From assembly GCA_029778565.1 (NCBI GenBank), contig JAKOQC010000187.1:2615-66614 (forward strand): a stretch of 64,000 nt of DNA, given 5' to 3'. Of this stretch, positions 16,541-63,056 are shown one piece after another. Position 1 is the first letter of the stretch, and each line of letters starts with the position of its first letter. The translations under genes and the position numbers were made by a program. The notes below the pieces were generated by a model that did not search any database, was not told where the DNA came from, and worked only from the letters and a program-made list of their open reading frames with translations. The stretch is from a bacterium. GTDB taxonomy: Bacteria; Patescibacteriota; Saccharimonadia; CAILAD01; BJGX01.

Positions 16541-16586
16541 TTAGCCATTAAACCAATTACACTAAAGGGGTGTAGCTCAGTTGGCT
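16541..16586 (+). repeat. direct repeat copy A (leader plus first 21 nt of tRNA-Trp)
   Basis: 46 nt identical, bar one T/C, to 16667..16712: TTAGCCATTAAACCAAT(T/C)ACACTAAAGGGGTGTAGCTCAGTTGGCT. Confidence 0.8.
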
Positions 16587-16636
16587 GTCGAGCGTTAGTG
16601 AGCACAATAGATAATTCTAGTCGGTATCCGACGCTC
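16566..16636 (+). pseudogene. degenerate tRNA-Trp remnant
   Basis: Starts as tRNA-Trp (AGGGGTGTAGCTCAGTTGGCT) then diverges. The anticodon arm is replaced by an insertion and a GTCGG-tat-CCGAC hairpin, with no T-arm or CCA. Confidence 0.5.
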
Positions 16637-16666: not shown

Positions 16667-16712
16667 TTAGCCATTAAACCAATCACACTAAAGGGGTGTA
16701 GCTCAGTTGGCT
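16667..16712 (+). repeat. direct repeat copy B (leader plus 5' part of the intact tRNA-Trp)
   Basis: See copy A. Confidence 0.8.
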
Positions 16713-16768
16713 AGAGCGTCGGTCTCCAAAACCGAAGGCCGCGGGTTCGACTCCTGCCACCCCTGCCA
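16692..16768 (+). tRNA. tRNA-Trp (anticodon CCA), CCA encoded
   Basis: Acceptor AGGGGTG/CACCCCT. Loop CTCCAAA. T-arm GCGGGTTCGACTCCTGC. Confidence 0.85.
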
Positions 16769-18340
16769 TTGTGAAATTACAGCCGAAATAGCGGCTGTTT
16801 TCGCTTTTATAGAAGGGAATTCTTTAGTTCTAACCAACTCTAATTCTTTCTCCAGTGCGGGGTATGCTTTTGCGATTGGTACAAGCCATGGATGAGGTGT
16901 AATAGTAAGTTTTTTATCTTTTAGTTGTAATTCTGTGCCCAGTTCTAACATTATTTGTTTGCGCTTTGAGCTATCACCAAATTTGAAGTTTGAATGTGCG
17001 TGAGTGGCAAAATTAATGGCAGTTGTAGCAATATCCGCCCAATCTTTAGAGCGTTGCTCTGTATCTCTAAGCTTTATAGTTAATTGTTCAATCTTTTCTT
17101 CTAGTATTTCTTTCTTCTCAATAAATTTGGATTCTGTTATTAAATTGCGTGTTGCTAAGTCTATTAAGCTATCTAATTGGTTTTGGGCGGCCAATATGCT
17201 CTTATGTTGCATTTCATATATATCAGTTCTTTTATTTGATTCCTCACTATTTAATCTCTGGATTACCTTAAGAGCCCATTGTTCGAACTCTGGCAAAATA
17301 GTATACTCCGATAATATTTTCTCCATTTCTATTTCAAGTACAGATTCTTCAATAAATCTAGTTTGACTACAGTTGAGCTTTCGTTTTTTCCGAGTACAAT
17401 GGTAATACTTATAAGTCTTAAGTTTGTTACTTGATTTTATTAGCTTAGTTTTTTCTTCAGCGGTAATTGCACATCCACATTCTCCACATTTCATTAAACC
17501 TGAATAGGCGAAGTCATGGCTACTTGCTCTTGGCTTTCCTTTTTTACCCAGTATAATTTGCGCTCGATCGAATTCTTCTAAAGAAATCATAGCTTTGTGC
17601 TTGCCCTCGTAAACAACATCATTTCGCACAAGTTTGCCTGCATAAAATTGATTAGTAAAAATTTTGTAAACAGTGCTTAAGGCAATTGGTTTACCACCAC
17701 TTTTTCTGTGCTTTGGCGTAATGTAACCCCATTCATTTACAGCAATGTCCCAAATTTTATGCACGGGTAATTGATCAATTAATAAAAGATCCCACATTCT
17801 TCTTATAAGAGGGAACCTAACCTTATCAATGTCGGCCATTTTAGTTACTAGGTTATTTGTATATCCTTGAGGTACAAGGCCCGTAGGGCCTCCCAAGGAG
17901 AGTTTTGTGTCATTGCCGCGCTTTACATCCCTACTAAGCTTTGCAGACTCGTATTGCCCCTGCGAAAGTGCCATTTGTAACATCCAAATGCCTTCTGGTG
18001 AGTTATCAAAATGGTAAGAACAAAATTTGAGATCTTTGATAATTGATTTTCTAACCCTAGATGTTATTCGGGCTGCATCTACTTCGTTACGAGATAAGCG
18101 ATTAGGGTGCCATGCAATAATAGCATCGGCTTCGCCATTATCAATAACCTCTAGCATTTGGTAAAAATCATCTCTAACATCTTCTGTAAACGCAGATTTG
18201 TGTTCCTCAAAGTGTTTTACAATGTGTAAATCAGAAAACTGCTCTTGTATCTTTTGTTTTTGCGCATATGTAGATAGAACCTGTCTTTCAGGATCTTCTG
18301 TTGATTTGCGCGTATAAGCTATGTATCGTAGTTTTTTCAT
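16703..18340 (-). CDS. large serine recombinase (resolvase/invertase catalytic domain, recombinase domain, zinc ribbon, coiled coil)
   Basis: N-terminal YTRKSTEDPERQ with the Ser nucleophile. Central recombinase domain. CGECGC...YYHCTRKK zinc ribbon. The start is taken at MKKLRYIAYTRKST (18340). The 3' end runs antisense across tRNA-Trp. Confidence 0.85.
   Translation of the reverse strand: MKKLRYIAYTRKSTEDPERQVLSTYAQKQKIQEQFSDLHIVKHFEEHKSAFTEDVRDDFYQMLEVIDNGEADAIIAWHPNRLSRNEVDAARITSRVRKSIIKDLKFCSYHFDNSPEGIWMLQMALSQGQYESAKLSRDVKRGNDTKLSLGGPTGLVPQGYTNNLVTKMADIDKVRFPLIRRMWDLLLIDQLPVHKIWDIAVNEWGYITPKHRKSGGKPIALSTVYKIFTNQFYAGKLVRNDVVYEGKHKAMISLEEFDRAQIILGKKGKPRASSHDFAYSGLMKCGECGCAITAEEKTKLIKSSNKLKTYKYYHCTRKKRKLNCSQTRFIEESVLEIEMEKILSEYTILPEFEQWALKVIQRLNSEESNKRTDIYEMQHKSILAAQNQLDSLIDLATRNLITESKFIEKKEILEEKIEQLTIKLRDTEQRSKDWADIATTAINFATHAHSNFKFGDSSKRKQIMLELGTELQLKDKKLTITPHPWLVPIAKAYPALEKELELVRTKEFPSIKAKTAAISAVISQWQGWQESNPRPSVLETDALAN
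16778..16810 (+). terminator. hairpin (ACAGCCG-aaata-GCGGCTGT) plus T-tract after tRNA-Trp
   Basis: Read directly. A near-identical stem recurs at 20486. Confidence 0.5.
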
Positions 18341-18481
18341 TGTTATACCAAAATGGACGGCTCTGGTAGATCCAATCACATACTGAAACAGCTGTTTACT
18401 GGCAGAGCCGCCCATTAAGGCAGCAAAAAAGCCGTTTCAATGTATTATGTTTTGGATCTACATAACCATTATCCTCCTATG

Positions 18482-18615: not shown

Positions 18616-18783
18616 TTATTCTCCAGTGTCATCGTTTGCGTATATATCTAAGTTATTAACATCGATATAATTTGCTACAAGTTCATTAATAATTTGTGTC
18701 ATAGAAACATTCGTATTAGCTGAATGTATTTTTAATATTCTATGTAGCTCTGTATTTAACCTAGCGTATTTGCTCTTTTTCAT
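18616..18783 (-). CDS. ribbon-helix-helix (CopG/Arc-like) DNA-binding protein, 55 aa
   Basis: Hand-translated: MKKSKYARLNTELHRILKIHSANTNVSMTQIINELVANYIDVNNLDIYANDDTGE. A basic beta-strand is followed by two helices. RBS GGAGAAAG lies 6 nt upstream. Confidence 0.5.
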   Translation of the reverse strand: MKKSKYARLNTELHRILKIHSANTNVSMTQIINELVANYIDVNNLDIYANDDTGE

Positions 18784-20033: not shown

Positions 20034-20280
20034 GTTAGTTGAATCTTGCTCTATTTCTTATTATTTGTCAATATACGTACTCCTTCTATGCCTTGTTAAT
20101 AACCAGTTGACAAGTGTGCTAAAATAACATACAATCTTGATGATATAAAAATCAAAACATCCCTCAAGGATGTTTTTTATATTCAAACAAGAATAAATTA
20201 GTTGTACAATAATGTTTACATACGTAGTATTACGCTGTAATATATAAGCATAAGCATATAAGCTTACTGGCAGGTGATAC

Positions 20281-20310
20281 AAAAAAAGCCCCTAATAGGG
20301 GCTTTTTTTG
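20281..20310. terminator. bidirectional hairpin A7-AGCCCC-taat-AGGGGCT-T7
   Basis: Read directly. Same stem family as 19255. No obvious gene ends here. Confidence 0.4.
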
Positions 20311-20319
20311 TTAAGAAGA

Positions 20320-20348
20320 TTGTAAGCATATCCGAAATGTGATATTAT
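20320..20348 (+). promoter_or_regulatory. sigma70-like promoter TTGTAA-N17-TATTAT upstream of the tRNA-like gene
   Basis: Hexamers and 17-nt spacer read directly. The hexamers end about 35 nt before the tRNA 5' end. Confidence 0.4.
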
Positions 20349-20383
20349 GGTTCCAATCTTGTGGTATCTGGCGTCTCATTGGG

Positions 20384-20459
20384 GCGTTAGTACAGCGGCA
20401 GTACAGGTAGCTTTATCACCTGCCAGACAGGAGTTCGAATCTCCTACGCTCCACCAAGT
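20384..20459 (+). tRNA. non-canonical tRNA-like gene (76 nt, CCA encoded, aberrant anticodon arm)
   Basis: Acceptor GGGGCGT/ACGCTCC. D-arm GTAC-agcggca-GTAC. T-arm AGGAG-ttcgaat-CTCCT. The only good anticodon-region helix (CAGGT/ACCTG) encloses a 9-nt loop AGCTTTATC and collides with the D-stem, so no 7-nt loop with a standard anticodon can be drawn. Confidence 0.5.
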
Positions 20460-20485
20460 GGGGCCGCCCAGACTCACGAGGTAGC

Positions 20486-20512
20486 AAACAGCCGCGAAAG
20501 CGGCTGTTTTGC
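20486..20512 (+). terminator. terminator hairpin AAACAGCCGC-gaaa-GCGGCTGTTT plus T-run
   Basis: Read directly. Paralogous to the hairpin after tRNA-Trp. Confidence 0.55.
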
Positions 20513-20621
20513 ATATAAAAGTATAATTGCTATAAAATTATGTCTACCAATCAGATTGGCCTATTGTTAAGGTTCTATGTGTGCCTTATAATCTACATAT
20601 AACAAATTTAATTTTTATCCA

Positions 20622-21269
20622 ATGATATATTGTACTAACTGTGGTAAACAGATTGATGATGATAGTAAATTTTGCCCTTTTTGTGGTGCCGCGGTAGTAG
20701 AAAATGAACAGGCAGACGTAGAAGATAACACTCAACAGAATAGTCCGCTTTGGGATAAGTTTGTCGAGATTAGAGATGCCAAGGGTGAGAAGCGAGAGAA
20801 ATACCTAAACTTTATTCCAGATGCCACCTGGACAGTTATGAAAAACATGCGTGAGAACGTATTAGACGAGCTGAAACAGGCATATCCTGAAGAAATCGGC
20901 AATTTGCCTTATAAAGACGTAGAAATTATTCTTAGCTTCTTCTCAATTGCCCAAAGAGATGGATATATAGTAAAACTATCAAACAGGCTTCTCAAAGACT
21001 CAAGAATCAAAAAAGCCAAAGACTTAACCGTAGACCATCTTGTCTCTCGTTGGCAGAGAGAGCTTGATATGGATGTTGAAAAAGTTACTGAGCCAGAAGA
21101 GCTAAACATATTGAATCTTATTAGTGTGTTTGATATTGACCAAGTTCTAGAGGACGAGAAAATAAAAGAACTTCCAAATAAAGTTATTGAGTCAATCAAA
21201 ACGGACTTTTATAAACTGACTTACTGGGGGTTCATTTTGGCACTTGTTGAGGAGAAACTTCAAAAATGA
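20622..21269 (+). CDS. zinc-ribbon-domain protein (N-terminal CxxCG...CPFCG), cytoplasmic
   Basis: 215 aa. First of four translationally coupled genes with ATGA overlaps. Confidence 0.55.
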   Translation: MIYCTNCGKQIDDDSKFCPFCGAAVVENEQADVEDNTQQNSPLWDKFVEIRDAKGEKREKYLNFIPDATWTVMKNMRENVLDELKQAYPEEIGNLPYKDVEIILSFFSIAQRDGYIVKLSNRLLKDSRIKKAKDLTVDHLVSRWQRELDMDVEKVTEPEELNILNLISVFDIDQVLEDEKIKELPNKVIESIKTDFYKLTYWGFILALVEEKLQK

Positions 21270-21868
21270 CATCAAAGTATTGTCCAAAGTGTGGTGCTAA
21301 ACTTGCACCTGGTGCAAAGTTTTGTGCTAAATGTGGGCATCCAGTTAAGCAAGAGGAAACAAACGTCGTAAAAAAAGAGCCAGAAGACACCAAGTCAGTT
21401 GCTAGTTCCACGGATAGTACCCAGAATAAGTATGAAGGTGTAAATGGCTGGCTGTTGTTATATACAATTGGTCTAGTAGCAGGCATTGGATTCAGTATCT
21501 TTAACTTTATATCTTATGTTGCATTGGCATTAAAGTTTGACGTAAATGCTGAGGGTGCGAGTGTCGTTATTGGAATATACCTTATACTTGGTTTTGGTTT
21601 CGCAATTTTGCTTGCTATCCAAAGCATTGCACTAGTTCAAATTATCCGTAGGAAGAAGTCAGCTAAGATTTTTGTAGTAATATCATTGGTTTACGGTTTT
21701 CTATTATATCTTGCTGATGCTGGGATTGCGGGCTGGGCGTACGAGCTTGCAAAAGAGACCGCTCCATCTGACCTTTATGGTGGTGCGGGAAGAGCATTTT
21801 TCGCTTTAGCTATTTGGCTACCTTACTTCTTGGTTTCGAAACGAGTTAAACAAACCCTAGTAAAATGA
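21266..21868 (+). CDS. zinc-ribbon-domain membrane protein
   Basis: 200 aa. N-terminal CPKCG...CAKCG followed by 4 to 5 TM helices. Confidence 0.55.
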   Translation: MTSKYCPKCGAKLAPGAKFCAKCGHPVKQEETNVVKKEPEDTKSVASSTDSTQNKYEGVNGWLLLYTIGLVAGIGFSIFNFISYVALALKFDVNAEGASVVIGIYLILGFGFAILLAIQSIALVQIIRRKKSAKIFVVISLVYGFLLYLADAGIAGWAYELAKETAPSDLYGGAGRAFFALAIWLPYFLVSKRVKQTLVK

Positions 21869-22479
21869 AAAAATGTGGTCACTGTGGGGCAGAAAACCCC
21901 GATTCTGCCAAATTCTGCAAGAAATGTGGCGAGTCTCTGGATGATGCTGTAGAGGGTGAGATTGTTGATGCCCCAAAAGCAATAAAGAAAGAGAGCAAAG
22001 TAAAGACCATCTTTGAAGGTATAGGCGGCTTCCTGATTATGTTGGTTGTCTTTGCGGCACTAATTTTTCTAATCTTTGCATTTATAAAAGGTGCAACTTT
22101 CCTTAGTGAAAAGCTGTTGCCGATTCTAGTAAAAATAGTTATTCCACTTTTAATAATAGAGTTATGTGTTGTTTTACCTTTAGCCTTATCAAAAAAACTA
22201 AAAGGTACAGCGGGAGTAATCGTTTATATTGGCTCATATGTATATGGCTTAACAGCATGGTTAATAGGCTTTATTGTGACCTTATACTATTGGGGAGTTT
22301 TCTGGGTGATAGTCGGCCTTTTCATAGCTGGAATTGGGGTAGCGCCTTTTGGGATAGTGGCAGGAGGCCTTAATGGCCAGTGGGCAGTAGTATTTAACTT
22401 AATTGTACTAATTGTGTTAACCTACGGCTCCAGAATGCTTGGTGCGAAGCTAGCCGAAGATGCTGACGAAGGTGTATGA
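21865..22479 (+). CDS. zinc-ribbon-domain membrane protein
   Basis: 204 aa. N-terminal CGHCG...CKKCG followed by multiple TM helices. Confidence 0.55.
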   Translation: MKKCGHCGAENPDSAKFCKKCGESLDDAVEGEIVDAPKAIKKESKVKTIFEGIGGFLIMLVVFAALIFLIFAFIKGATFLSEKLLPILVKIVIPLLIIELCVVLPLALSKKLKGTAGVIVYIGSYVYGLTAWLIGFIVTLYYWGVFWVIVGLFIAGIGVAPFGIVAGGLNGQWAVVFNLIVLIVLTYGSRMLGAKLAEDADEGV

Positions 22480-22775
22480 AGAAGACAGACACAACTCTTT
22501 GGGTATCTATTGGAATAATTGCATCTGTAATTGTTATTATCTTTGTTGTCGTTATTCTAGTAATTGCGAGCAAAGGGTCAAGTACTGATTCGATAACCGA
22601 TACTTGTTCAAATCCACAAATTAAGGGCAACATTAGCAAATCTGGTGAAAAAATCTATCACAAGCCTGGTGATATGTATTACTCACAAACCGAGATAAAC
22701 GAAAGTGCTGGTGAAAAAATGTTTTGTACTGAAAAAGACGCCCAAGACGCTGGCTGGCGACATTCTAAGATTTAA
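22476..22775 (+). CDS. small membrane-anchored protein with conserved C-terminal module (GNISKSGEKIYHKPGDMYY...FCTEKDAQDAGWR)
   Basis: 99 aa: TM helix plus a 60-aa domain. From memory, the motif resembles a short module found at the C-termini of some Firmicutes secreted nucleases. This is unverified. Confidence 0.45.
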   Translation: MKKTDTTLWVSIGIIASVIVIIFVVVILVIASKGSSTDSITDTCSNPQIKGNISKSGEKIYHKPGDMYYSQTEINESAGEKMFCTEKDAQDAGWRHSKI

Positions 22776-23760: not shown

Positions 23761-23849
23761 GCCAGTACTTGTGGCTTTGTTAGTATAATTGCGTTTCTAA
23801 CTTCTTCTATAGTGCCCTGCCAAAGTACTAAAGTACTTATGCTTAAATC

Positions 23850-41286: not shown

Positions 41287-41904
41287 ATGGCTATCGAAGC
41301 AGGAATTTTTAGTAATGGTTCATGTTTTGATCAACGATATATTCCAGATTTTGAACAGCTAGCAAGACTTGTTGCACATATGAAAGGTATTGGCCTTAGA
41401 ATTGTTCTTACATCAGGGTCGTTCGACTTCTTTCATCTTGGTCACGCCTTTTATCTAGAGAAGGCACGGGAACAGGGTGATGTGTTGATCGTTGGTGTTG
41501 ATAGTGATGCAAAAATCGCCCGCAAGAAGGGACCAAATCGGCCACTATATCCTCAGGATGAGCGTTTGCAAATTCTTGTTCGTCAACGATCTGTTGATAT
41601 TGTTACTCTTAAAGAAGCTACTGACGAAAAATGGGTATTGATTAAAACGCTTAAGCCTGATGTTTTGGTTGCTACACAAGAAACATACACCGATGCTGAG
41701 ATAGAAGAACTTCAGCAATATTGTGGCGAGGTAAAGGTTTTGGAGCCTCAAGCCCAAACTTCTACTAGTAAGCGACTGCGAGATCTTAATCTGGAGCTTG
41801 CGAGTGACATTGGTGAGCGTCTTGCAGAGCGAATCCCTGGCTTGCTCCAAGAAGTCCTCGACGAGGCAGTTGGCCGTCATGACAAGCCAAAGGTGAATCC
41901 ATGA
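41287..41904 (+). CDS. cytidylyltransferase-like nucleotidyltransferase (RfaE domain II / TagD family, HxGH)
   Basis: GSFDFFHLGH motif and IVGVDSDAKIARKKGPNRPLYPQDER. Confidence 0.6.
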   Translation: MAIEAGIFSNGSCFDQRYIPDFEQLARLVAHMKGIGLRIVLTSGSFDFFHLGHAFYLEKAREQGDVLIVGVDSDAKIARKKGPNRPLYPQDERLQILVRQRSVDIVTLKEATDEKWVLIKTLKPDVLVATQETYTDAEIEELQQYCGEVKVLEPQAQTSTSKRLRDLNLELASDIGERLAERIPGLLQEVLDEAVGRHDKPKVNP

Positions 41905-42740
41905 GTACTGTATTGGTTCTATATATGCCAGTTATTCATGAAACCTACCTAGAGTTAATTGATAGCCAACGTTGGGATGAGATATTTATTATCGAAAATA
42001 GTTTGGCAATTGAGCTTGTAGATAGTCTCCGCAAAGACCTTCGTGCTCTTAATGCAGAGACAGTAAAGTCGATATTGGTCCGTCGCGATGGTGCTCGACC
42101 TGCATTTGTAGTGTCTGGGGCCACGGCAATTTTTGATCAATCGACACAATTTGTTTTGCCCGATGAAGATGTAAGTCATGCTTTTGCAAAGAGATTTTTA
42201 CATGGCAGAGAAGTAGAGTTTAGAAATGTGTTTTTGCGATACGATAGAAAACGAACTACCGAACCGTTTGAGCCAAACCCAGATGAGGTTATCACAACCG
42301 ATCAGTTTGCTCGAGACATGATAGCTCGTTGTGATGAACTGGCAACCAAAAGCCCCGACTGGTGGCGTCAAATTGGTGGTCTTATTGTTAAAGAAGGCAA
42401 GATCATAGAAGAGCTACAAATGTTTAACGAGGCCAAACCGTTTGGTATGGTACCATACGAACTTGGTGATCCACGTAGTAACTTTAAGAAGGGTCTTCAT
42501 CCAGACTTGACCCTGGTATTGCATGTCGAACAGGGCCTGGTAAGTGAGGCTGCCCGACTGGGGATTGCTCTCGAAGGCGCGGATCTCTATGTGAGTACTT
42601 TTCCGTGCCCTTGGTGCGCCACAGCTGTGGCCTATAGTGGTATTGGTAGAGTCTATTACCGTGATGGCTATGCTATGCTCGATGGAGAAGAGATTCTCAA
42701 GAGCAACGGTGTCGAGCTCATTCGCGTTGTGGAGCCATAA
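41901..42740 (+). CDS. CMP/dCMP-deaminase-domain protein with about 140-aa unassigned N-terminal domain
   Basis: The C-terminal half carries the zinc motifs HVEQ and PCPWC. 4-nt overlap with the upstream gene. Confidence 0.6.
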   Translation: MSTVLVLYMPVIHETYLELIDSQRWDEIFIIENSLAIELVDSLRKDLRALNAETVKSILVRRDGARPAFVVSGATAIFDQSTQFVLPDEDVSHAFAKRFLHGREVEFRNVFLRYDRKRTTEPFEPNPDEVITTDQFARDMIARCDELATKSPDWWRQIGGLIVKEGKIIEELQMFNEAKPFGMVPYELGDPRSNFKKGLHPDLTLVLHVEQGLVSEAARLGIALEGADLYVSTFPCPWCATAVAYSGIGRVYYRDGYAMLDGEEILKSNGVELIRVVEP

Positions 42741-42751
42741 AAATACCCCGA

Positions 42752-43735
42752 TCAATCGAATTGATCGGGGCTTTTGTTATCTTGAGGTACAGAACTCATT
42801 TTGAATCTAACTGGTGTGTGATTGGGATTATCGACATCACCAACTTTAATGTGCGCATGCAGATGTGCAACGCTGCCACCAGTGCGGCTCATGTCGCCAA
42901 AACGCATACCAAGGGCACCATAGTCTAGGCCGTAACTATGTATTACCCAAGAAATCATCAGTCCAAAGTCGGTTTTGGCGGCTAGACTAAGTTCATCGAA
43001 ATTTTCAACATGACTTTTTGGAATAAGCAGTAAATCTTCAATAGTGCCCTTATAAGGGTTATCATTTTTAGTTACTATCCAGTGTGGTGATTGATTTGCA
43101 ATTGGGTTCTGATGGTACCAAGCCAGCCACTGTGGACAGAAAGGGCAGATACCATCATTCAGAATCTCTTCCATATACCCGGCTTGGTTGTCGAACCGGG
43201 CAGCTGGTAAGTATAGGAGCGGCGGTGAGGGTGGATATTCACTTGCCGGGCTGTAACGTAGAAATACATACTCCAGACCACTTACGTCATCTTTTTGGAT
43301 ATTACCAGCTTCTGTAACAATCCAGTCGCTGGGCGAAGTAAACGGAAAAACGGCATCACCGTTTTCAATATGAGTATTTACCAGAGTTAGCTCAATAGCG
43401 TCTACCACACCAGCATCAAATGCTGCCTGGTAGATTTGCTGCCCACCAATAATGAAAATCGGTTTGTTCCAGTCAGAGGCAACTTCAAGTGCTTTCTCGA
43501 AGTTACTGACCGTCCAAACATCTTCTGGTGCTGTAGCAAGAGAACTTGAGACCACAATATTTACTCTATTAGGCAAAGGTTTGCCAATACTTTCATAGGT
43601 CTTGCGACCCATAATAACAACATTACCAGTCGTTAACTCTTTAAACCTCTTAAGATCGGCAGGTATATGCCAAGGAATCTGTCCGTCTTTACCGATTACG
43701 CGATTACGGCTGCGGGCCGCGATTACGGTAATCAT
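42752..43735 (-). CDS. folA: dihydrofolate reductase fused to a C-terminal HIT (histidine-triad) domain
   Basis: Residues 1-160 form a typical DHFR (MITVIAARSRNRVIGKDGQIPWHIPADLKRFKELT...). Residues 170-327 carry CPFC and the triad HLHAHI. Confidence 0.75.
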   Translation of the reverse strand: MITVIAARSRNRVIGKDGQIPWHIPADLKRFKELTTGNVVIMGRKTYESIGKPLPNRVNIVVSSSLATAPEDVWTVSNFEKALEVASDWNKPIFIIGGQQIYQAAFDAGVVDAIELTLVNTHIENGDAVFPFTSPSDWIVTEAGNIQKDDVSGLEYVFLRYSPASEYPPSPPLLYLPAARFDNQAGYMEEILNDGICPFCPQWLAWYHQNPIANQSPHWIVTKNDNPYKGTIEDLLLIPKSHVENFDELSLAAKTDFGLMISWVIHSYGLDYGALGMRFGDMSRTGGSVAHLHAHIKVGDVDNPNHTPVRFKMSSVPQDNKSPDQFD

Positions 43736-44691
43736 GGCAACACCGGAATTTCGCTAATTGGCTCATGCGGATCATAATCGGAGAGTACAAACAGCTCTCC
43801 ATGTAGTTTATGAATCGCATCGGAATCGTGTGGCACAGGTGGGCTCCATTCGAAGACATCGGGGCCGAAATGTATAGTCGGTAAACGTCGAGGTTCGCGC
43901 TCTAACATCTGCTCGACATACTTCATTTGCCCTTCGTAAATATGTGCATCGACGATGTAGTGAATATATTCGCCTGGCTCGAAGCCAGTAATATCACAAA
44001 GCAGTAGCATGAGAGCAGCATATTGCACCAAGTTAGATGGCACACCAATCGGCACATCACCGCTACGTTGCTTCATGTGCAGATTGAGCTTGCCATTGAG
44101 AATTCGCACTTGCACCCAGCCATGACACGGGGCAATAGTAGCTTTGTTAACTCTACCAGAATCACGCGCTAGCCCAGCACTATGCCAGGGGCTAACCACA
44201 TGTGTTCTGTCATTTGGAAATTCACTAATTTGCTGTACTAAATGGGCAAACTGATTATATGGGGTACCATCAAAGTCTGGCCAATCATGAAACATTGGTC
44301 CATAACTGGCAGGACCAATATCACCGGTGGGCAAGCCACGCTTGCTGCACTTGGCCTCGGTACCCCAATCACCCCACCAGGTAACACCCCAGCGTTCGAA
44401 ATCTTCGATGGTATGTACACCATTTATCATAGCGCCAAGCTCGTTGATAGCTTTGCGCCAAAAAGCAATTTTACGTTCGGTAATAAGTGGAAATCCATCA
44501 CGCAAAATATCAAAGCGCATTTGTACACCAAGCAGTGTTTTAGCACGCTCACCTTGGCGGGTAACCTCGCTCCACTGACCTCGATCCATAATTGCTGCTA
44601 AGACATCTCTGTATTGTGTATTTGGTTCACGTTCTTCATAGGGCAAATAATCGAGCTTTAGGTATCCCATGCAAGAAACCCTTTCTGTCAA
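43732..44691 (-). CDS. thyA: thymidylate synthase ThyA-family enzyme (divergent, 319 aa)
   Basis: Catalytic APCH. QRSGDVPIGVPSNLVQYA corresponds to QRSCDVFLGLPFNIASYA in E. coli ThyA, with the Asn retained. DAHIY. Several insertions. 4-nt overlap with folA. Confidence 0.75.
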   Translation of the reverse strand: MTERVSCMGYLKLDYLPYEEREPNTQYRDVLAAIMDRGQWSEVTRQGERAKTLLGVQMRFDILRDGFPLITERKIAFWRKAINELGAMINGVHTIEDFERWGVTWWGDWGTEAKCSKRGLPTGDIGPASYGPMFHDWPDFDGTPYNQFAHLVQQISEFPNDRTHVVSPWHSAGLARDSGRVNKATIAPCHGWVQVRILNGKLNLHMKQRSGDVPIGVPSNLVQYAALMLLLCDITGFEPGEYIHYIVDAHIYEGQMKYVEQMLEREPRRLPTIHFGPDVFEWSPPVPHDSDAIHKLHGELFVLSDYDPHEPISEIPVLP

Positions 44692-44786
44692 AGACCACCT
44701 CTGTAGGTCTGCTCGATTGTACTATATAGACCACAAACCTGTAAAGTGATAGAATTGTGCCAGCACCTACTAAAATGTGAGGGAAC

Positions 44787-45269
44787 ATGACCGATACTCA
44801 AATAGTTCCAGTGGTCTCGTGGGATGAAATTCAAAAATTCTTGCCAAGAATTCAAATGGGTGTAAGTGGTGAAGCAATAATGCCGGTTTTCGTACAAGAT
44901 CTTACATTGAGCTTTGATCTAGATAGACAAGAATTTGTACTAAGTCGGGATAGGTTTGGTTATTTGCCGGCTGATGAAGTTCGTCGTAATGACATTCATC
45001 AGCTTGAAGTAGGATTAACAAAATTTCTGATTCAGTATTACCAAGGCGAGCTCGAAGCTGCTGTACGGGCTGCAACATATCAAATGTTTTTGCAGCTTTG
45101 TAAGCAGATTCCTTACCCTCAAGGCTGCCAATGTGGAAATTATCCCCATGGCCAGGCACTCGACTGTCACGTGCATATGGATAATCCGTGCCACTTCTTT
45201 GGCGACTTCAACTTCACCTGCACCTGCGACGAGCAGAAAGAGGCCAAAAATGCCGCACATTCATCCTGA
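44787..45269 (+). CDS. hypothetical protein with C-terminal Cys/His cluster
   Basis: 160 aa with C-x-C...C-H-x-H...C-H...C-x-C near the C-terminus. No family recognised. Confidence 0.4.
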   Translation: MTDTQIVPVVSWDEIQKFLPRIQMGVSGEAIMPVFVQDLTLSFDLDRQEFVLSRDRFGYLPADEVRRNDIHQLEVGLTKFLIQYYQGELEAAVRAATYQMFLQLCKQIPYPQGCQCGNYPHGQALDCHVHMDNPCHFFGDFNFTCTCDEQKEAKNAAHSS

Positions 45270-45747
45270 GCTTGATTTTTGCGCCGTAACTTACATTGTG
45301 AATGATAACAAAGTGTTGCTATGTCATCACATCAAACTTGGGGTCTGGGTTCCGCCAGGTGGGCATGTTGAACCTGGTGAAACCATTGATGCTGCCCGTG
45401 ACCGAGAAATCAAAGAAGAGACTGGGCTCGATGTCACCATCATCGGGCCAAAACCAGGCTTTGTAATTGCAGGTATGGAGTCGCTAGTGGCACCGCGTTA
45501 CACTGATGTGCACCCAATTGCTTGCGAGTTTCCTAATCACCGCCACCAGGCATTTGTGTACTTTGGCACAGTCGATGTGCGTAACGAAGTTTTGCAAGAA
45601 GACGAGCACCATGAACTACGCTGGTTTTCTATGCACGATCTCGAGCGCTATCATGACCCAGAAGCGCCGATTCCAGACAATGTTTCTTGGTATGCAAGCG
45701 TTGCCCTCGAAGAGCTGGGGTACCATGGGGCGACGAGGATTTTTTAG
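45250..45747 (+). CDS. NUDIX hydrolase
   Basis: Nudix box GGHVEPGETIDAARDREIKEETGL. Start taken at MPHIHPE (45250). Confidence 0.75.
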   Translation: MPHIHPELDFCAVTYIVNDNKVLLCHHIKLGVWVPPGGHVEPGETIDAARDREIKEETGLDVTIIGPKPGFVIAGMESLVAPRYTDVHPIACEFPNHRHQAFVYFGTVDVRNEVLQEDEHHELRWFSMHDLERYHDPEAPIPDNVSWYASVALEELGYHGATRIF

Positions 45748-45787
45748 CCAGATAGGCAACTATCTGGTTTTTTTATATAATAAAGCT

Positions 45788-47023
45788 ATGAATCAAATTC
45801 AAAAACTTACGGACACCGAAAACGAGCGGCAAAAAAGTACTCTAAATTTAATTGCGTCAGAAAATTATCCAAGCCCCAAGGCTTTGACTCTCCTTGGCTC
45901 TATTTGGAATGATAAGTATGCCGAGGGTTATCCTGGTAAACGCTATTACGCAGGTAATGTAAATGCCGACAGTCTCGAAGAATTTGTTCAGGCTAAGGCA
46001 CTAGAAGTGTTTAATGCCCGAGAAGATTATGGTGTAAATGTACAGGTACTCTCTGGTAGTCCTGCGAATGCAATGGTGTATTTTACTGTTTTAGAACCTG
46101 GTGATACAGTACTTAGCCTTAATTTGAATAGTGGTGGACATCTTAGTCATCTGCATACCACTAGCAGCTACGTAAAATTCTTTAAGCACTTTACCTATAG
46201 CTTGCGTGGAGGTAAGTTACACGAAGCTGAGTTCGAACAAGCCCTAAAAGAGCATAAACCGCGTTTGGTAGTGATTGGTTATAGTAGCTATCCAGCCCAA
46301 TACGAATTTACACGACTGTGCCAGTTGGCTCATGCATATGGGGCGCTTGTTTTGGCCGACATTAGCCATATCGCTGGGCTCGTAGCTGCCGGTCAGCACT
46401 CTTCGCCATTTCATAGTGGTGCTAGCGGAGCAGATTTTGTAACTACTACTACTCACAAAACTTTGCGAGGACCTCGTTCTGCACTAGTGTTTGCCAAAAA
46501 AGAGTATATGCCAGCAGTAAATAAAACTGTATTTCCCGGAACAAGTGGGGGTCCGCACCTTAATCAAATAGCTGCAGTTGGCCAGAGTCTACTAGAGGTA
46601 TTGGGCGAGGAAACTTATCCCGATAAAACCCCATTTAATGAATATATACAAGATGTTTTAAAAAATGCCAAAGCCCTCGAGTCTGGACTGAAACAGGCTG
46701 GTGTGCATGTAACTATACCGACTGCAACCCACTTGGTATTGGCTAAATTACCAGAAGAAGTAGATAGCCTTACCTTGCAAAACGATCTCGAAGAGGTGGG
46801 AATTATTACTAATCGCAATGCAATACCTGGTGATGAAAAATCTCCCTGGCGACCAGGCGGTCTGCGACTTGGTAGTGCTGCACTTACTTCTAGAGGAATG
46901 AAGCATGATGACTTTTTAATGCTTGGTGAAGCTATAGGGAGCTTTATTATGGGTAAAAAAGATAAGGCAGAACTTAGCATTGTTACAAAAGACCTACAGA
47001 AAAGCCTGAAGTGGTATTATTAA
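45788..47023 (+). CDS. glyA: serine hydroxymethyltransferase
   Basis: 411 aa; YAEGYPGKRYYAG and TTTTHKTLRGPR (PLP lysine). Start at 45788. Confidence 0.9.
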   Translation: MNQIQKLTDTENERQKSTLNLIASENYPSPKALTLLGSIWNDKYAEGYPGKRYYAGNVNADSLEEFVQAKALEVFNAREDYGVNVQVLSGSPANAMVYFTVLEPGDTVLSLNLNSGGHLSHLHTTSSYVKFFKHFTYSLRGGKLHEAEFEQALKEHKPRLVVIGYSSYPAQYEFTRLCQLAHAYGALVLADISHIAGLVAAGQHSSPFHSGASGADFVTTTTHKTLRGPRSALVFAKKEYMPAVNKTVFPGTSGGPHLNQIAAVGQSLLEVLGEETYPDKTPFNEYIQDVLKNAKALESGLKQAGVHVTIPTATHLVLAKLPEEVDSLTLQNDLEEVGIITNRNAIPGDEKSPWRPGGLRLGSAALTSRGMKHDDFLMLGEAIGSFIMGKKDKAELSIVTKDLQKSLKWYY

Positions 47024-62574: not shown

Positions 62575-62749
62575 ACACAGCAGTAGAGACGCAACCACTA
62601 GTATTTTTAGCTAGGATATGCTATATTAAGGGCACTAGAAAGCCGCCATAGAAAGCTAGTTTAATATTAATAAGTCAGTGCAAAAGAGGAGCGGCAGACT
62701 TTTAACAGTTTACCTCTAGCCAAGACAGAAGAAAAAGGTAAATAGTTAG

Positions 62750-63030: not shown

Positions 63031-63056
63031 ACCGACTGTTAAAAGTCGGTTTTTTA
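63031..63056. terminator. bidirectional terminator ACCGACT-gttaaa-AGTCGGT flanked by A and T runs
   Basis: Lies between convergent genes. Confidence 0.65.

What the first reader, a model, noticed from the sequence alone, without database searches (positions are those of the whole stretch)
20384..20459. tRNA-like gene with canonical acceptor, D and T arms but no standard anticodon stem-loop
The gene has a clean 7-bp acceptor stem, a GTAC/GTAC D-stem, an AGGAG/CTCCT T-stem with TTCGAAT loop, and an encoded CCA. A promoter lies upstream and a terminator downstream. The anticodon region is one nucleotide too long. Its only stable helix, CAGGT/ACCTG, closes a 9-nt loop AGCUUUAUC and overlaps the D-stem. 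Possibilities include an expanded-anticodon-loop tRNA of the frameshift-suppressor type, a hybrid att-junction tRNA, or a tRNA-derived regulatory RNA.
Basis: seen in the sequence. Interest (0 to 1): 0.55.

Follow-up and report, generated by a model that had tools for sequence, protein, structure and literature searches.

The report
Alanine-type tRNA with antisense partner
A small mobile element in a Saccharibacteria genome carries a well-formed tRNA gene that should accept alanine but has an oversized nine-base anticodon loop, and beside it lies a short RNA gene exactly complementary to that loop; the same pairing recurs at three unrelated loci, which suggests a risky tRNA held in check by its own antisense RNA.

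Summary
ARAGORN and Rfam both call it a tRNA. The minimum-energy fold and the Rfam alignment give a standard cloverleaf. Its anticodon stem GGUAG/CUGCC closes a 9-nt loop (CUUUAUCAC), and the variable loop is 4 nt. Three other metagenome tRNAs share this architecture, and all five stem pairs show compensatory changes.

ARAGORN's label "tRNA-Ile(UAU)" is therefore misleading.

The gene is cargo of a roughly 7-kb serine-recombinase element at tRNA-Trp in a Candidatus Saccharibacteria genome. A second MAG has the element at 96-100% identity although its chromosome is only about 80% identical.

A 13-nt segment 134 nt upstream, directly followed by an intrinsic terminator, is perfectly complementary to the anticodon loop and 3' stem. 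The same layout occurs at three independent odd tRNAs (L122, L100, L103) and at none of the roughly 950 controls.

Best reading: an alanine-charged aberrant decoder restrained by a dedicated antisense RNA. The function is inferred, not shown. The hybrid att-junction idea is rejected.

The parts
20381..20456 (+). Odd tRNA gene, 76 nt with encoded CCA. Cloverleaf arm and loop lengths are 7/2/4/7/4/1/5/9/5/4/5/7/5/7/1. It carries G3:U70 and A73.
   Evidence: ARAGORN; Rfam 48.6 bits; MFE cloverleaf; identical copy in L116
20406..20424 (+). Anticodon arm: stem GGUAG (20406-10) with CUGCC (20420-24), and the 9-nt loop CUUUAUCAC (20411-19)
   Evidence: Compensatory changes at 5 of 5 stem pairs across window, L100, L097 and L107.
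20320..20348 (+). Promoter-like site for the tRNA (TTGTAA-17-TATTAT, TG before the -10)
   Evidence: 9 of 12 matches; a consensus match only
20486..20513 (+). Hairpin AAACAGCCGC/GCGGCUGUUU plus U-run downstream of the tRNA (putative terminator)
   Evidence: I9; sequence. Not flagged by the stricter scan.
20267..20279 (+). 13-nt segment CUGGCAGGUGAUA, perfectly complementary to tRNA nt 34-46 (UAUCACCUGCCAG, 20414-20426). Proposed seed of an antisense small RNA.
   Evidence: I4. One of only two such 13-mer inverted pairs in 64 kb. Duplex -26 kcal/mol against -13 to -17 for the other three tRNAs.
20279..20311 (+). Intrinsic terminator directly after the seed (16-bp perfect hairpin, A7/U7 flanks, bidirectional)
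   Evidence: I2; fold
20215..20243 (+). Promoter-like site that would start the antisense RNA near 20250, giving an RNA of about 60 nt
   Evidence: TTTACA-17-TAATAT, 9 of 12. A stronger site at 20107-20135 (11 of 12) would give an RNA of about 170 nt.
20246..20266 (+). Conserved scaffold AAGCATAAGCAT...ATAAGCTTA next to the variable seed, shared with L122 and L117
16587..23824 (.). Block shared at 96-100% identity (with internal dips) with MAG contig CAZMYX010000001.1, while the flanking chromosome is 65-88% identical. This is the integrative element that carries the tRNA.
   Evidence: Identity profile; junction alignments
16703..18415 (-). Large serine recombinase (Resolvase + Recombinase + Zn_ribbon_recom). 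Its last ~22 codons are read from the antisense strand of tRNA-Trp.
   Evidence: PHROG integrase phrog_95, E=1.9e-65. The same overlap with a tRNA is seen in L116, L117, L118 and L127.
16692..16768 (+). Intact tRNA-Trp(CCA) at the left end of the element
16541..16586 (+). Partial copy of the tRNA-Trp leader plus tRNA nt 1-21, ending at the junction GGCT|GTCGAGC. The copy is decayed in L116.
23815..23822 (+). CCCTGCCA, a repeat of the last 8 nt of tRNA-Trp (16761-16768), at the right end of the shared block
   Evidence: In L116 a second recombinase element starts right after it.
18616..18783 (-). 55-aa Arc-like/RHH repressor candidate of the element
   Evidence: phrog_3180, E=6e-5; weak RH3_dom hit

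Best explanation
The locus encodes a structurally intact tRNA whose acceptor stem carries the alanine identity set (G3:U70, A73). Alanyl-tRNA synthetase ignores the anticodon, so it should charge this tRNA with alanine. The anticodon loop is expanded to 9 nt (CUUUAUCAC) and contains no alanine anticodon.

The gene is cargo of a roughly 7-kb integrative element with a large serine recombinase, sitting at tRNA-Trp in a Candidatus Saccharibacteria genome.

A short RNA appears to be encoded 134 nt upstream. It consists of a conserved 5' scaffold, a 13-nt seed and an intrinsic terminator. The seed is perfectly complementary to the tRNA's anticodon loop and the 3' strand of the anticodon stem.

Proposed mechanism: the alanine-charged tRNA is an aberrant decoder. 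Candidate activities are missense reading, read-through of UAA, or reading of 4-5-base codons; which one applies is unresolved. The antisense RNA pairs with the anticodon arm and blocks decoding or exposes the tRNA to cleavage. A stable harmful tRNA with a labile antisense RNA would act like an all-RNA toxin-antitoxin pair that stabilises the element, or like a switch for regulated recoding.

Status of each step:
- Shown: the gene structure, its mobile-element context, and the recurrent, partner-specific complementarity next to terminators.
- Inferred from established identity rules: alanine charging.
- Inferred only: expression of the short RNA, RNA-RNA pairing in vivo, harmfulness of the tRNA, and the toxin-antitoxin or switch role.
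For: Structure
- tRNA calls by ARAGORN and Rfam.
- MFE cloverleaf with a 9-nt loop.
- L100 gives the same MFE cloverleaf and L097/L107 fit it in the pair count. All cells pair, all five anticodon-stem pairs change on both sides, and G3:U70 is invariant.
- The 9-nt loops of the window and L100 are identical at 7 of 9 positions.

Identity
- G1:C72, G2:C71, G3:U70, G4:C69 and A73 are read directly.
- G3:U70 is sufficient for AlaRS, and AlaRS does not read the anticodon (PMC11415595, PMC7609411).

Mobile context
- The recombinase has the domain triad and a PHROG integrase hit.
- Identity to L116 jumps from 65-88% to 96-100% at 16587 and ends at 23824.
- The tRNA is 76/76 identical in L116.
- Related recombinases also end inside antisense tRNA genes.
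- The host is Saccharibacteria.

Antisense partner
- The 13-nt perfect complement abuts a terminator.
- The homologous scaffold in L122 has a different 16-nt cassette that matches L122's own cargo tRNA, behind an 11/12 promoter on the antisense strand.
- Among 952 tRNAs, a copy of at least 13 nt of the anticodon arm in non-tRNA flanks occurs only in window, L116, L122 and one control.
- In a scan of 979 tRNAs that allows G.U pairs, four independent odd tRNAs (window/L116, L122, L100, L103) score at or above the 99th percentile. Only these have a terminator within 0-11 nt on the strand antisense to the tRNA.
- Each seed prefers its own tRNA: -25.5 to -38.1 kcal/mol against -9.6 to -19.5.
- The single mismatch in L100 becomes a G.U pair only in the tRNA:antisense-RNA orientation.

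Potential harm
- AUA (21.5 per 1000), GAU (34 per 1000) and UAA (17 of 38 stops) are all common in this host.
Against: - There are no expression, charging or decoding data.
- This exact tRNA is known from only two near-identical copies. The whole surrounding region is 99.5% identical, so its conservation says nothing about selection on the tRNA itself.
- Other 9-nt-loop alanine-type tRNAs (L097/L101/L107) and most odd alanine-type tRNAs have no detectable antisense partner.
- L122's cargo tRNA lacks the alanine identity set.
- The window's promoter for the short RNA is only a 9/12 match.
- It is unknown whether a 9-nt loop decodes anything efficiently on a ribosome.
- No element gene shows an obvious need for recoding.
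- No known defence or TA protein is encoded.
- L100 and L103 are short contigs of unknown taxonomy and context.
- In the window the two complementary copies are inverted in the DNA, and a recombinase is nearby, so a DNA-level role is not excluded.
Confidence: 0.45

Rival explanations
1. A non-decoding regulatory pair. The tRNA-shaped RNA never enters translation. It is a stable scaffold that sponges or is guided by the short RNA (or the reverse), for example to control the element's life cycle. The alanine-type acceptor stem is an evolutionary leftover.
For: - The anticodon arms of the cargo tRNAs are irregular and differ completely between related elements, while the partner seed changes with them.
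- L122's tRNA has no clear identity set and a weak anticodon stem.
- L117 carries a different structured RNA (LOOT, RF03000) at the equivalent place.
Against: - Three of the four partnered tRNAs keep the full alanine set, intact D and T arms and tertiary-pair nucleotides. The window's tRNA and L103's are followed by CCA in the DNA. This looks like selection for charging and ribosome or EF-Tu compatibility.
- No second target of the seed exists in the window.
Confidence: 0.22
2. A DNA-level recombination site. The 13-nt inverted copies (20267-20279 and 20414-20426) are sites at which a recombinase inverts the 134-bp segment holding the tRNA promoter and 5' half, switching the tRNA on and off.
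For: - A perfect 13-nt inverted repeat brackets the promoter and 5' half.
- A serine recombinase lies 2 kb away, with a weaker match to DNA invertases (phrog_125).
- Only two such inverted pairs exist in 64 kb.
Against: - In L122, L100 and L103 the two copies are direct, not inverted. They sit about 100-130 nt downstream of the tRNA, so recombination there would delete rather than invert.
- In all four loci the copy abuts a terminator whose U-run is on the antisense strand.
- L100's mismatch is tolerated only as an RNA G.U pair.
- The recombinase's own junctions are at tRNA-Trp.
- Both independent assemblies show the same orientation: the window's source (the Logan contig L001 is identical to it) and L116.
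Confidence: 0.12
3. A decaying tRNA-Ala pseudogene picked up by the element. The enlarged loop is mutational damage and the upstream complement is coincidence.
For: - It has the lowest Rfam score in the window.
- The acceptor stem is that of tRNA-Ala, and the loop could derive from CUUUGCAC by small changes (reading against viral tRNA-Ala genes).
- Conservation in L116 is uninformative.
Against: - All 21 stem pairs are intact. U8, A14, G18G19, the G15:C48 pair and the T-loop are kept, and promoter and terminator are present.
- The same rare architecture and a near-identical loop occur in L100 with compensatory stem changes.
- The complement next to a terminator recurs at four independent loci and in none of about 950 controls.
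Confidence: 0.08
4. A genuine tRNA-Ile(UAU) for AUA codons, as ARAGORN labels it.
For: ARAGORN's call. A35, U36, A38 and A73 would fit part of the isoleucine set.
Against: - It needs a C.C mismatch at 31:39, two nucleotides at position 26 and C37 in place of the purine that t6A requires.
- The acceptor stem has G3:U70.
- G4:C69, A12:U23 and A29:U41 replace the E. coli isoleucine pairs C4:G69, U12:A23 and C29:G41 (from my knowledge of the identity set, read).
- The relatives L100 and L097 would then read different codons.
Confidence: 0.03
5. A hybrid tRNA created at an attachment junction of the element.
For: The element belongs to a recombinase family that integrates at tRNA genes.
Against: - The gene is internal to the shared block. 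It lies 3.8 kb from one junction and 3.4 kb from the other.
- Its 5' and 3' halves pair perfectly.
- No partial copy of either half exists elsewhere in the window, apart from the 13-nt complement.
Confidence: 0.02

Closest known systems
Naturally encoded hybrid-identity (mistranslating) tRNAs, e.g. tRNA-ProX of Streptomyces, alanine-identity allo-tRNAs, and tRNA-Ala anticodon variants (PMC11415595, PMC7609411)
   Same: The identity elements for one amino acid (here G3:U70 and A73 for alanine) sit on a tRNA whose anticodon region does not match that amino acid. AlaRS recognises only the acceptor stem, which makes such hybrids chargeable.
   Different: - The anticodon loop has 9 nt instead of 7, so the codon read is unclear.
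- The fold is an ordinary 7/5 cloverleaf, not the 8/4 or 9/3 acceptor/T-stem fold of allo-tRNAs.
- No dedicated synthetase is co-encoded, unlike ProRSx.
- It is carried on an integrative element and paired with an antisense RNA, which I did not find described for any of these.
Frameshift-suppressor tRNAs with expanded anticodon loops (sufD, sufB2, sufJ; yeast mitochondrial tRNA-Thr(UAG) with an 8-nt loop; engineered 9-nt-loop tRNAs that read five-base codons). From my own knowledge, except that the yeast mitochondrial case is cited in PMC7609411.
   Same: Extra nucleotides in the anticodon loop on an otherwise normal tRNA body.
   Different: - Classical suppressors have 8-nt loops and arise by single-base insertion in a resident tRNA gene.
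- This one has 9 nt, is a separate horizontally moving gene with alanine identity, and has a similar 9-nt loop in an unrelated metagenome (L100).
- Suppressor activity has not been tested.
Type I and type III toxin-antitoxin systems (a labile RNA antitoxin beside a stable toxin on mobile elements)
   Same: - A short adjacent RNA with a terminator-proximal region specifically complementary to its partner.
- Location on a mobile element.
- Seed and target co-vary between elements.
   Different: - The partner is a tRNA, not a toxin mRNA (type I) or a protein (type III).
- Toxicity and differential stability are untested.
- No toxin ORF is involved.
Large-serine-recombinase integrative elements and prophages
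   Same: - Recombinase of 535-570 aa with the Resolvase + Recombinase + zinc-ribbon triad.
- The recombinase gene lies at the element's end.
- Cargo of small membrane 'moron'-like proteins and an Arc-like repressor.
   Different: - In four of the five family elements examined (Trp in the window/L116, L117 and L118; Asn in L127) the recombinase ORF runs into an antisense tRNA gene; no tRNA was found at that end in L122.
- The element has no phage structural genes and no conjugation genes.

Membership tests
tRNA (Rfam RF00005) | Cloverleaf with acceptor, D, anticodon and T arms, scoring above the gathering threshold | tested here: met
   48.6 bits against 29; MFE cloverleaf
tRNA (Rfam RF00005) | 7-nt anticodon loop with U33 and a purine at 37 | tested here: not met
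   The loop is 9 nt in the Rfam alignment and the MFE fold. The forced 7-nt reading has C37 and a C.C closing mismatch.
tRNA-Ala (AlaRS substrates) | G3:U70 wobble pair in the acceptor stem | tested here: met
   G at 20383 pairs with T at 20450. Invariant in window, L100, L097 and L107.
tRNA-Ala (AlaRS substrates) | A73 discriminator and a G1:C72, G2:C71, G4:C69 context | tested here: met
   Read
tRNA-Ala (AlaRS substrates) | Alanine anticodon NGC | tested here: not met
   The loop CUUUAUCAC contains no GC dinucleotide
tRNA-Ala (AlaRS substrates) | Aminoacylation with alanine by AlaRS | not testable with these tools
   Needs an in vitro or in vivo charging assay
tRNA-Ile(UAU) | UAU anticodon in a 7-nt loop with A37 (t6A), plus isoleucine identity pairs | tested here: not met
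   C37, a C.C mismatch at 31:39, G3:U70, G4:C69, A12:U23. The identity set is from my knowledge of the E. coli system.
Frameshift-suppressor tRNAs | Anticodon loop enlarged beyond 7 nt | tested here: met
   9 nt
Frameshift-suppressor tRNAs | Reads a 4- or 5-base codon, or shifts the reading frame | not testable with these tools
   Needs reporter assays. No frameshifted gene was found in the element.
Type I / type III toxin-antitoxin | An adjacent small RNA specifically complementary to, or binding, its partner | tested here: met
   13-16-nt complements next to terminators at 4 loci. Own-pair duplexes of -25.5 to -38.1 kcal/mol against -9.6 to -19.5 for cross pairs.
Type I / type III toxin-antitoxin | The partner is a toxic protein or its mRNA | tested here: not met
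   The partner is a tRNA gene. No ORF is involved.
Type I / type III toxin-antitoxin | Toxicity of one partner, relieved by the other | not testable with these tools
   Needs expression experiments
Large serine recombinase integrative element | Resolvase + Recombinase + Zn_ribbon_recom protein at the end of a block with defined junctions | tested here: met
Large serine recombinase integrative element | An empty attachment site in a related genome | tested here: inconclusive
   L126 shows the right-flank gene directly after a tRNA 3' end, but the tRNA is a different one (Gln type) in a distant relative.
Hybrid att-junction tRNA | The tRNA spans an element-chromosome junction | tested here: not met
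   The gene is internal to the shared block. The junctions are at 16586/7 and 23824/5.

The most novel reading that the evidence does not exclude
An all-RNA toxin-antitoxin-like module. The toxin is a mobile-element tRNA that alanyl-tRNA synthetase charges and that mis-decodes common codons, stops or reading frames. The antidote is a dedicated, labile antisense RNA that masks the tRNA's anticodon arm. The module is modular: related elements swap the tRNA and re-match the seed. It occurs in several bacterial lineages.
Probability: 0.3. Interest if true: 0.9.

Novelty: new variant of a known kind. Interest (0 to 1): 0.7.

Why it matters
- Reviews of hybrid-identity tRNAs state that how their hosts control them is unknown (PMC11415595, Outlook). 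A dedicated antisense RNA against the anticodon arm would be a concrete, testable control mechanism.
- If the tRNA is harmful, it would be the first case of a tRNA serving as the toxic half of an addiction or defence module.
- It would give a natural example of a 9-nt anticodon loop on a chargeable body. This matters for genetic-code engineering, because AlaRS ignores the anticodon, so the scaffold could be reprogrammed.
- It is also an annotation warning: standard tools label this gene tRNA-Ile(UAU), which could mislead inferences about AUA decoding and tilS dispensability in Saccharibacteria.

Tried and rejected
1. My own error. The patterns (viral; genome contigs) had one N too many on the 3' side and could not match the gene itself (shown). 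The single genome-contig scan was therefore wasted. It returned only an unrelated odd tRNA (L002). Whether relatives exist in the 185,579 reference genomes remains untested.
2. BLAST of the locus against phage and plasmid collections found no match.
3. The corrected pattern on viral contigs gave 91 ordinary tRNA-Ala genes and no relative. The loop-specific pattern gave 0 hits.
4. A comparison of the divergently transcribed neighbour proteins of the window and L100 found no similarity.
5. Homologues of the 238-aa neighbour (L119-L121) carry no tRNA.
6. Three short recombinase contigs (L123-L125) had too little upstream DNA to be informative.
7. L117, L118 and L127 have related recombinases but no cargo tRNA.
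8. I tested whether L117's LOOT RNA pairs with a nearby segment. It does not.
9. A permissive Rfam scan of 18.4-20.7 kb gave only sub-threshold terminator-driven hits such as isrK, STnc130 and tracrRNA.
10. The search for an empty site through DUF2199 was not clean.
11. PADLOC found no defence protein.
12. A literature search for a tRNA with an antisense partner found nothing.
13. The first control for flank matches was confounded by tRNA arrays. I redid it with masking.
Full report
**1. What is at the coordinates**

Its sequence is GGGGCGTTAGTACAGCGGCAGTACAGGTAGCTTTATCACCTGCCAGACAGGAGTTCGAATCTCCTACGCTCCACCA. ARAGORN calls it tRNA-Ile(TAT). Rfam's tRNA model scores it 48.6 bits against a threshold of 29, the lowest of the six tRNAs in the window.

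A promoter-like site (20320-20348) and a downstream hairpin with a short U-run (20486-20509) flank the gene.

**2. The anticodon arm**

Three registers were on the table.

| Register | Stem | Loop | Problems |
|---|---|---|---|
| ARAGORN's | GUAGC/CCUGC | 7 nt (UUUAUCA) | Two nt at position 26, a C.C mismatch, pyrimidine at 37 |
| Rfam alignment and MFE fold | GGUAG/CUGCC, directly after A26 | 9 nt (CUUUAUCAC) | None; variable loop is 4 nt (AGAC) |

The third register leaves every other arm canonical. It is also supported by comparison. A metagenome scan for alanine-type acceptor stems with an oversized middle part returned three further lineages with exactly the same arm and loop lengths: L100, and L097/L101 with their variant L107. 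On the ungapped 73-nt alignment of these sequences:

- All 84 cells pair.
- 11 pairs change on both sides.
- All five anticodon-stem pairs co-vary.

Anticodon-stem pairing was not part of the search pattern. So the statement "no standard anticodon stem-loop" is half right: the stem is standard and the loop is not.

**3. Amino-acid identity**

The acceptor stem reads G1:C72, G2:C71, G3:U70, G4:C69 with A73. G3:U70 is the major determinant for alanyl-tRNA synthetase and is sufficient on its own. The enzyme does not read the anticodon (PMC11415595 and PMC7609411). The loop contains no alanine anticodon. The ARAGORN label is therefore misleading, and the isoleucine identity pairs known from E. coli are absent (my knowledge of that set, read).

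What the 9-nt loop reads cannot be decided here. The possibilities are:

- UAU with C37, the forced 7-nt reading.
- UUA after C32-U33, which would read the UAA stop codon. UUA is conserved between the window and L100.
- AUC before A37-C38.
- A 4-nt anticodon (UAUC) or a 5-nt anticodon (UUAUC).

All candidate targets are frequent in this host: AUA 21.5 per 1000 codons, GAU 34 per 1000, and UAA at 17 of 38 stops.

**4. Genomic context**

A 570-aa large serine recombinase lies 2 kb upstream (16703-18415, minus strand). PHROGs identifies it as an integrase with E=1.9e-65. Its last codons are read from the antisense strand of tRNA-Trp.

Its homologues are mostly from Patescibacteria MAGs. Housekeeping proteins of the window cluster at 90% identity or more with proteins named Candidatus Saccharibacteria.

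A 99%-identical recombinase sits on NCBI MAG contig CAZMYX010000001.1 (L116). Aligning that locus to the window gives this profile:

| Window region | Identity to L116 |
|---|---|
| Chromosome left of 16.6 kb | 65-88% |
| From 16587 (recombinase) | 96-100% |
| 19.25-20.5 kb (238-aa gene, odd tRNA) | 99-100% |
| 21.25-22.75 kb (Zn-ribbon membrane genes) | 52-89% |
| 22.75-23.75 kb | 98-100% |
| Beyond 23824 | Homology stops |

The left break is the junction GGCT|GTCGAGC. It lies at the end of a partial copy of tRNA-Trp (nt 1-21), and that copy is decayed in L116. The right break follows CCCTGCCA, a repeat of the last 8 nt of tRNA-Trp. In L116 a second recombinase element begins there.

The odd tRNA is 76/76 identical in L116. 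Because the whole neighbourhood is 99.5% identical, this shows recent horizontal spread of a roughly 7-kb element. It does not show selection on the tRNA.

Related recombinases at 49-53% identity also end inside antisense tRNA genes: tRNA-Trp in L117 and L118, and tRNA-Asn in L127. None of these carries a cargo tRNA. The hybrid att-junction idea is therefore rejected, because the gene is internal to the element and both of its halves pair perfectly.

**5. The antisense partner**

A k-mer search showed that 20267-20279 (CTGGCAGGTGATA) is the exact reverse complement of tRNA nt 34-46 (20414-20426). This covers most of the loop, the 3' strand of the stem and two variable-loop bases. It is one of only two such 13-mer inverted pairs in the 64-kb window. 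It lies directly 5' of a perfect 16-bp terminator hairpin with a U7 tail (20279-20311).

The closest related element, L122, has a recombinase 59% identical to ours. It carries a different irregular class-I tRNA, called "Ser-UGA" but only 75 nt long. The 16-nt anticodon stem-loop sequence of that tRNA recurs 117 nt downstream, again abutting a terminator.

The two regions align as terminator, then a variable cassette, then conserved AAGCTTAT/ATGCTTATGCTT repeats. The scaffold is therefore homologous, and in each element the cassette matches that element's own tRNA. In L122 an 11/12 promoter on the strand antisense to the tRNA lies just upstream of the cassette.

**6. Controls**

A copy of at least 13 nt of the anticodon arm in the flanks occurs only in the window, L116, L122 and one control.

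In a scan of 979 tRNAs that tolerates G.U pairs, the median score is 9.4 and the 99th percentile is 14.6. Four independent odd tRNAs score 14.8-20.0: window/L116, L122, L100 and L103. Only in these is the complementary segment followed within 0-11 nt by a hairpin and U-run on the strand antisense to the tRNA. No high-scoring control has this.

- L100 has the alanine set and the 9-nt loop CCUUACCAC.
- L103 has the alanine set with an aspartate-type GUC anticodon in a 7-nt loop.
- Predicted duplex energies are -25.5 to -38.1 kcal/mol for the matched pairs and -9.6 to -19.5 kcal/mol for mismatched pairs.
- L100's single mismatch is a G.U pair only in the tRNA:antisense orientation.

The module is not universal. 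Most odd alanine-type tRNAs from the metagenome scan, including the 9-nt-loop group L097/L101/L107, have no detectable partner.

**7. Interpretation**

Shown:
- A structurally sound tRNA gene with a 9-nt anticodon loop.
- The alanine identity nucleotides.
- A location inside a recently transferred serine-recombinase element.
- A recurrent, partner-specific complementary segment next to terminators.

Inferred from established rules:
- Charging with alanine.

Inferred only:
- The complementary segment is the seed of a short transcript.
- That transcript pairs with the tRNA in vivo.
- The tRNA is harmful, or at least needs restraint.
- The pair acts as an addiction or abortive module, or as a recoding switch.

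The main rivals are a non-decoding regulatory RNA pair and a DNA inversion switch. The latter is weakened by the direct orientation of the repeats in three of the four loci. A decaying pseudogene is a further rival, weakened by the intact stems, the shared rare architecture and the recurrence of the partner.

**8. Relation to known systems**

The tRNA resembles natural hybrid-identity (mistranslating) tRNAs and expanded-loop frameshift suppressors. It differs in loop size, in being mobile-element cargo, and in lacking a dedicated synthetase.

The pairing resembles type I and type III toxin-antitoxin logic, but with a tRNA as the partner. I found no description of such a pair in the searchable literature. 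That library is incomplete.

**9. Limits**

- My mis-specified patterns wasted the only reference-genome scan. The distribution of relatives in sequenced genomes is therefore unknown.
- All functional statements are computational.
- The family evidence rests on four loci, and two of them are short contigs without context.

Noticed in passing
window 16541-16586 and 16667-16712: The leader plus the first 21 nt of tRNA-Trp are duplicated 126 bp upstream of the intact gene. The copy ends at the junction GGCT|GTCGAGC. It is decayed in the sister MAG (L116). This looks like the scar of integration into the tRNA-Trp D-loop, with the element supplying a replacement tRNA-Trp.
   Followed up: partly
window 16703-16768; L117 4709-4810; L118 9585-9668; L127 8567-8608: In four of the five elements of this serine-recombinase family examined (not L122, where no tRNA was found at that end), the last ~10-35 codons of the recombinase ORF overlap a tRNA gene on the opposite strand (Trp or Asn). 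The C-terminus of the protein is therefore encoded by antisense tRNA sequence.
   Followed up: partly
L116 1-4659: The sister MAG has a second, different serine-recombinase element (515-aa recombinase plus an HTH_17/MerR-like gene). It is inserted exactly at the right end of the first element, after CCCTGCCAAA. This suggests tandem accretion at a hot spot.
   Followed up: no
window 21250-22750: Inside an element that is otherwise 96-100% identical, the second and third zinc-ribbon membrane-protein genes and the 99-aa gene are only 52-89% identical between the two MAGs. This means either a mosaic origin or diversifying selection on membrane proteins.
   Followed up: no
window 41287-47023: Between rplA and the L10 leader/rplJ the ribosomal-protein cluster is interrupted by about 6 kb of nucleotide and folate genes: a cytidylyltransferase, a deaminase, a 327-aa DHFR, ThyA and SHMT. 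L1 itself is 313 aa, with an N-terminal extension.
   Followed up: no
window 16769-38900: About 22 kb separates tRNA-Trp from nusG (39134). Only the first ~7 kb is the recombinase element. The rest includes DUF2199, a polysaccharide deacetylase, an ABC transporter, an ECF sigma factor, a histidine kinase and carotenoid-type genes. It has a lower GC content (0.36-0.40) and may be older island material.
   Followed up: no
L117 1662-1778 (-): A LOOT RNA (RF03000, 62.5 bits) sits about 1.3 kb upstream of the recombinase in a related element, at the place where our element has the odd tRNA. The AAGCATAAGCAT motif also occurs nearby, at 1871.
   Followed up: partly
L102 2568-2724; L106 8262-8418; L110 6511-6667: Phage-like tRNA arrays contain two adjacent tRNAs with 8-nt anticodon loops (ARAGORN four-base anticodons CUUA and CGGA). 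The CUUA tRNA has an alanine-type acceptor stem and the same D-loop (AGCGGCA) as our tRNA. The arrays also hold a tRNA-Ile(UAU). No antisense partner was found.
   Followed up: partly
window 20457-20465: The 3' trailer AGUGGGGCC is complementary to the tRNA's 3' acceptor strand and CCA (GCUCCACCA). It could form an alternative hairpin in the precursor (fold).
   Followed up: no
L002 1655-1733: A Saccharimonadia MAG (JAYRIB010000042.1) has an odd tRNA that ARAGORN cannot assign (two-base 'anticodon' CC). It was found by accident with my faulty pattern.
   Followed up: no
L015 11017-11033 and 11301-11317: This is the one control outlier. A viral-contig tRNA-Asn has a 17-nt direct copy of its anticodon arm 280 nt upstream, without a terminator. 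It may be an unrecognised tRNA fragment.
   Followed up: no
window 62697-62709 and 63035-63047: This is the only other perfect 13-nt inverted pair with a 20-400 nt spacer in the window (GACTTTTAACAGT). It lies about 500 nt upstream of tRNA-Gln (63569).
   Followed up: no
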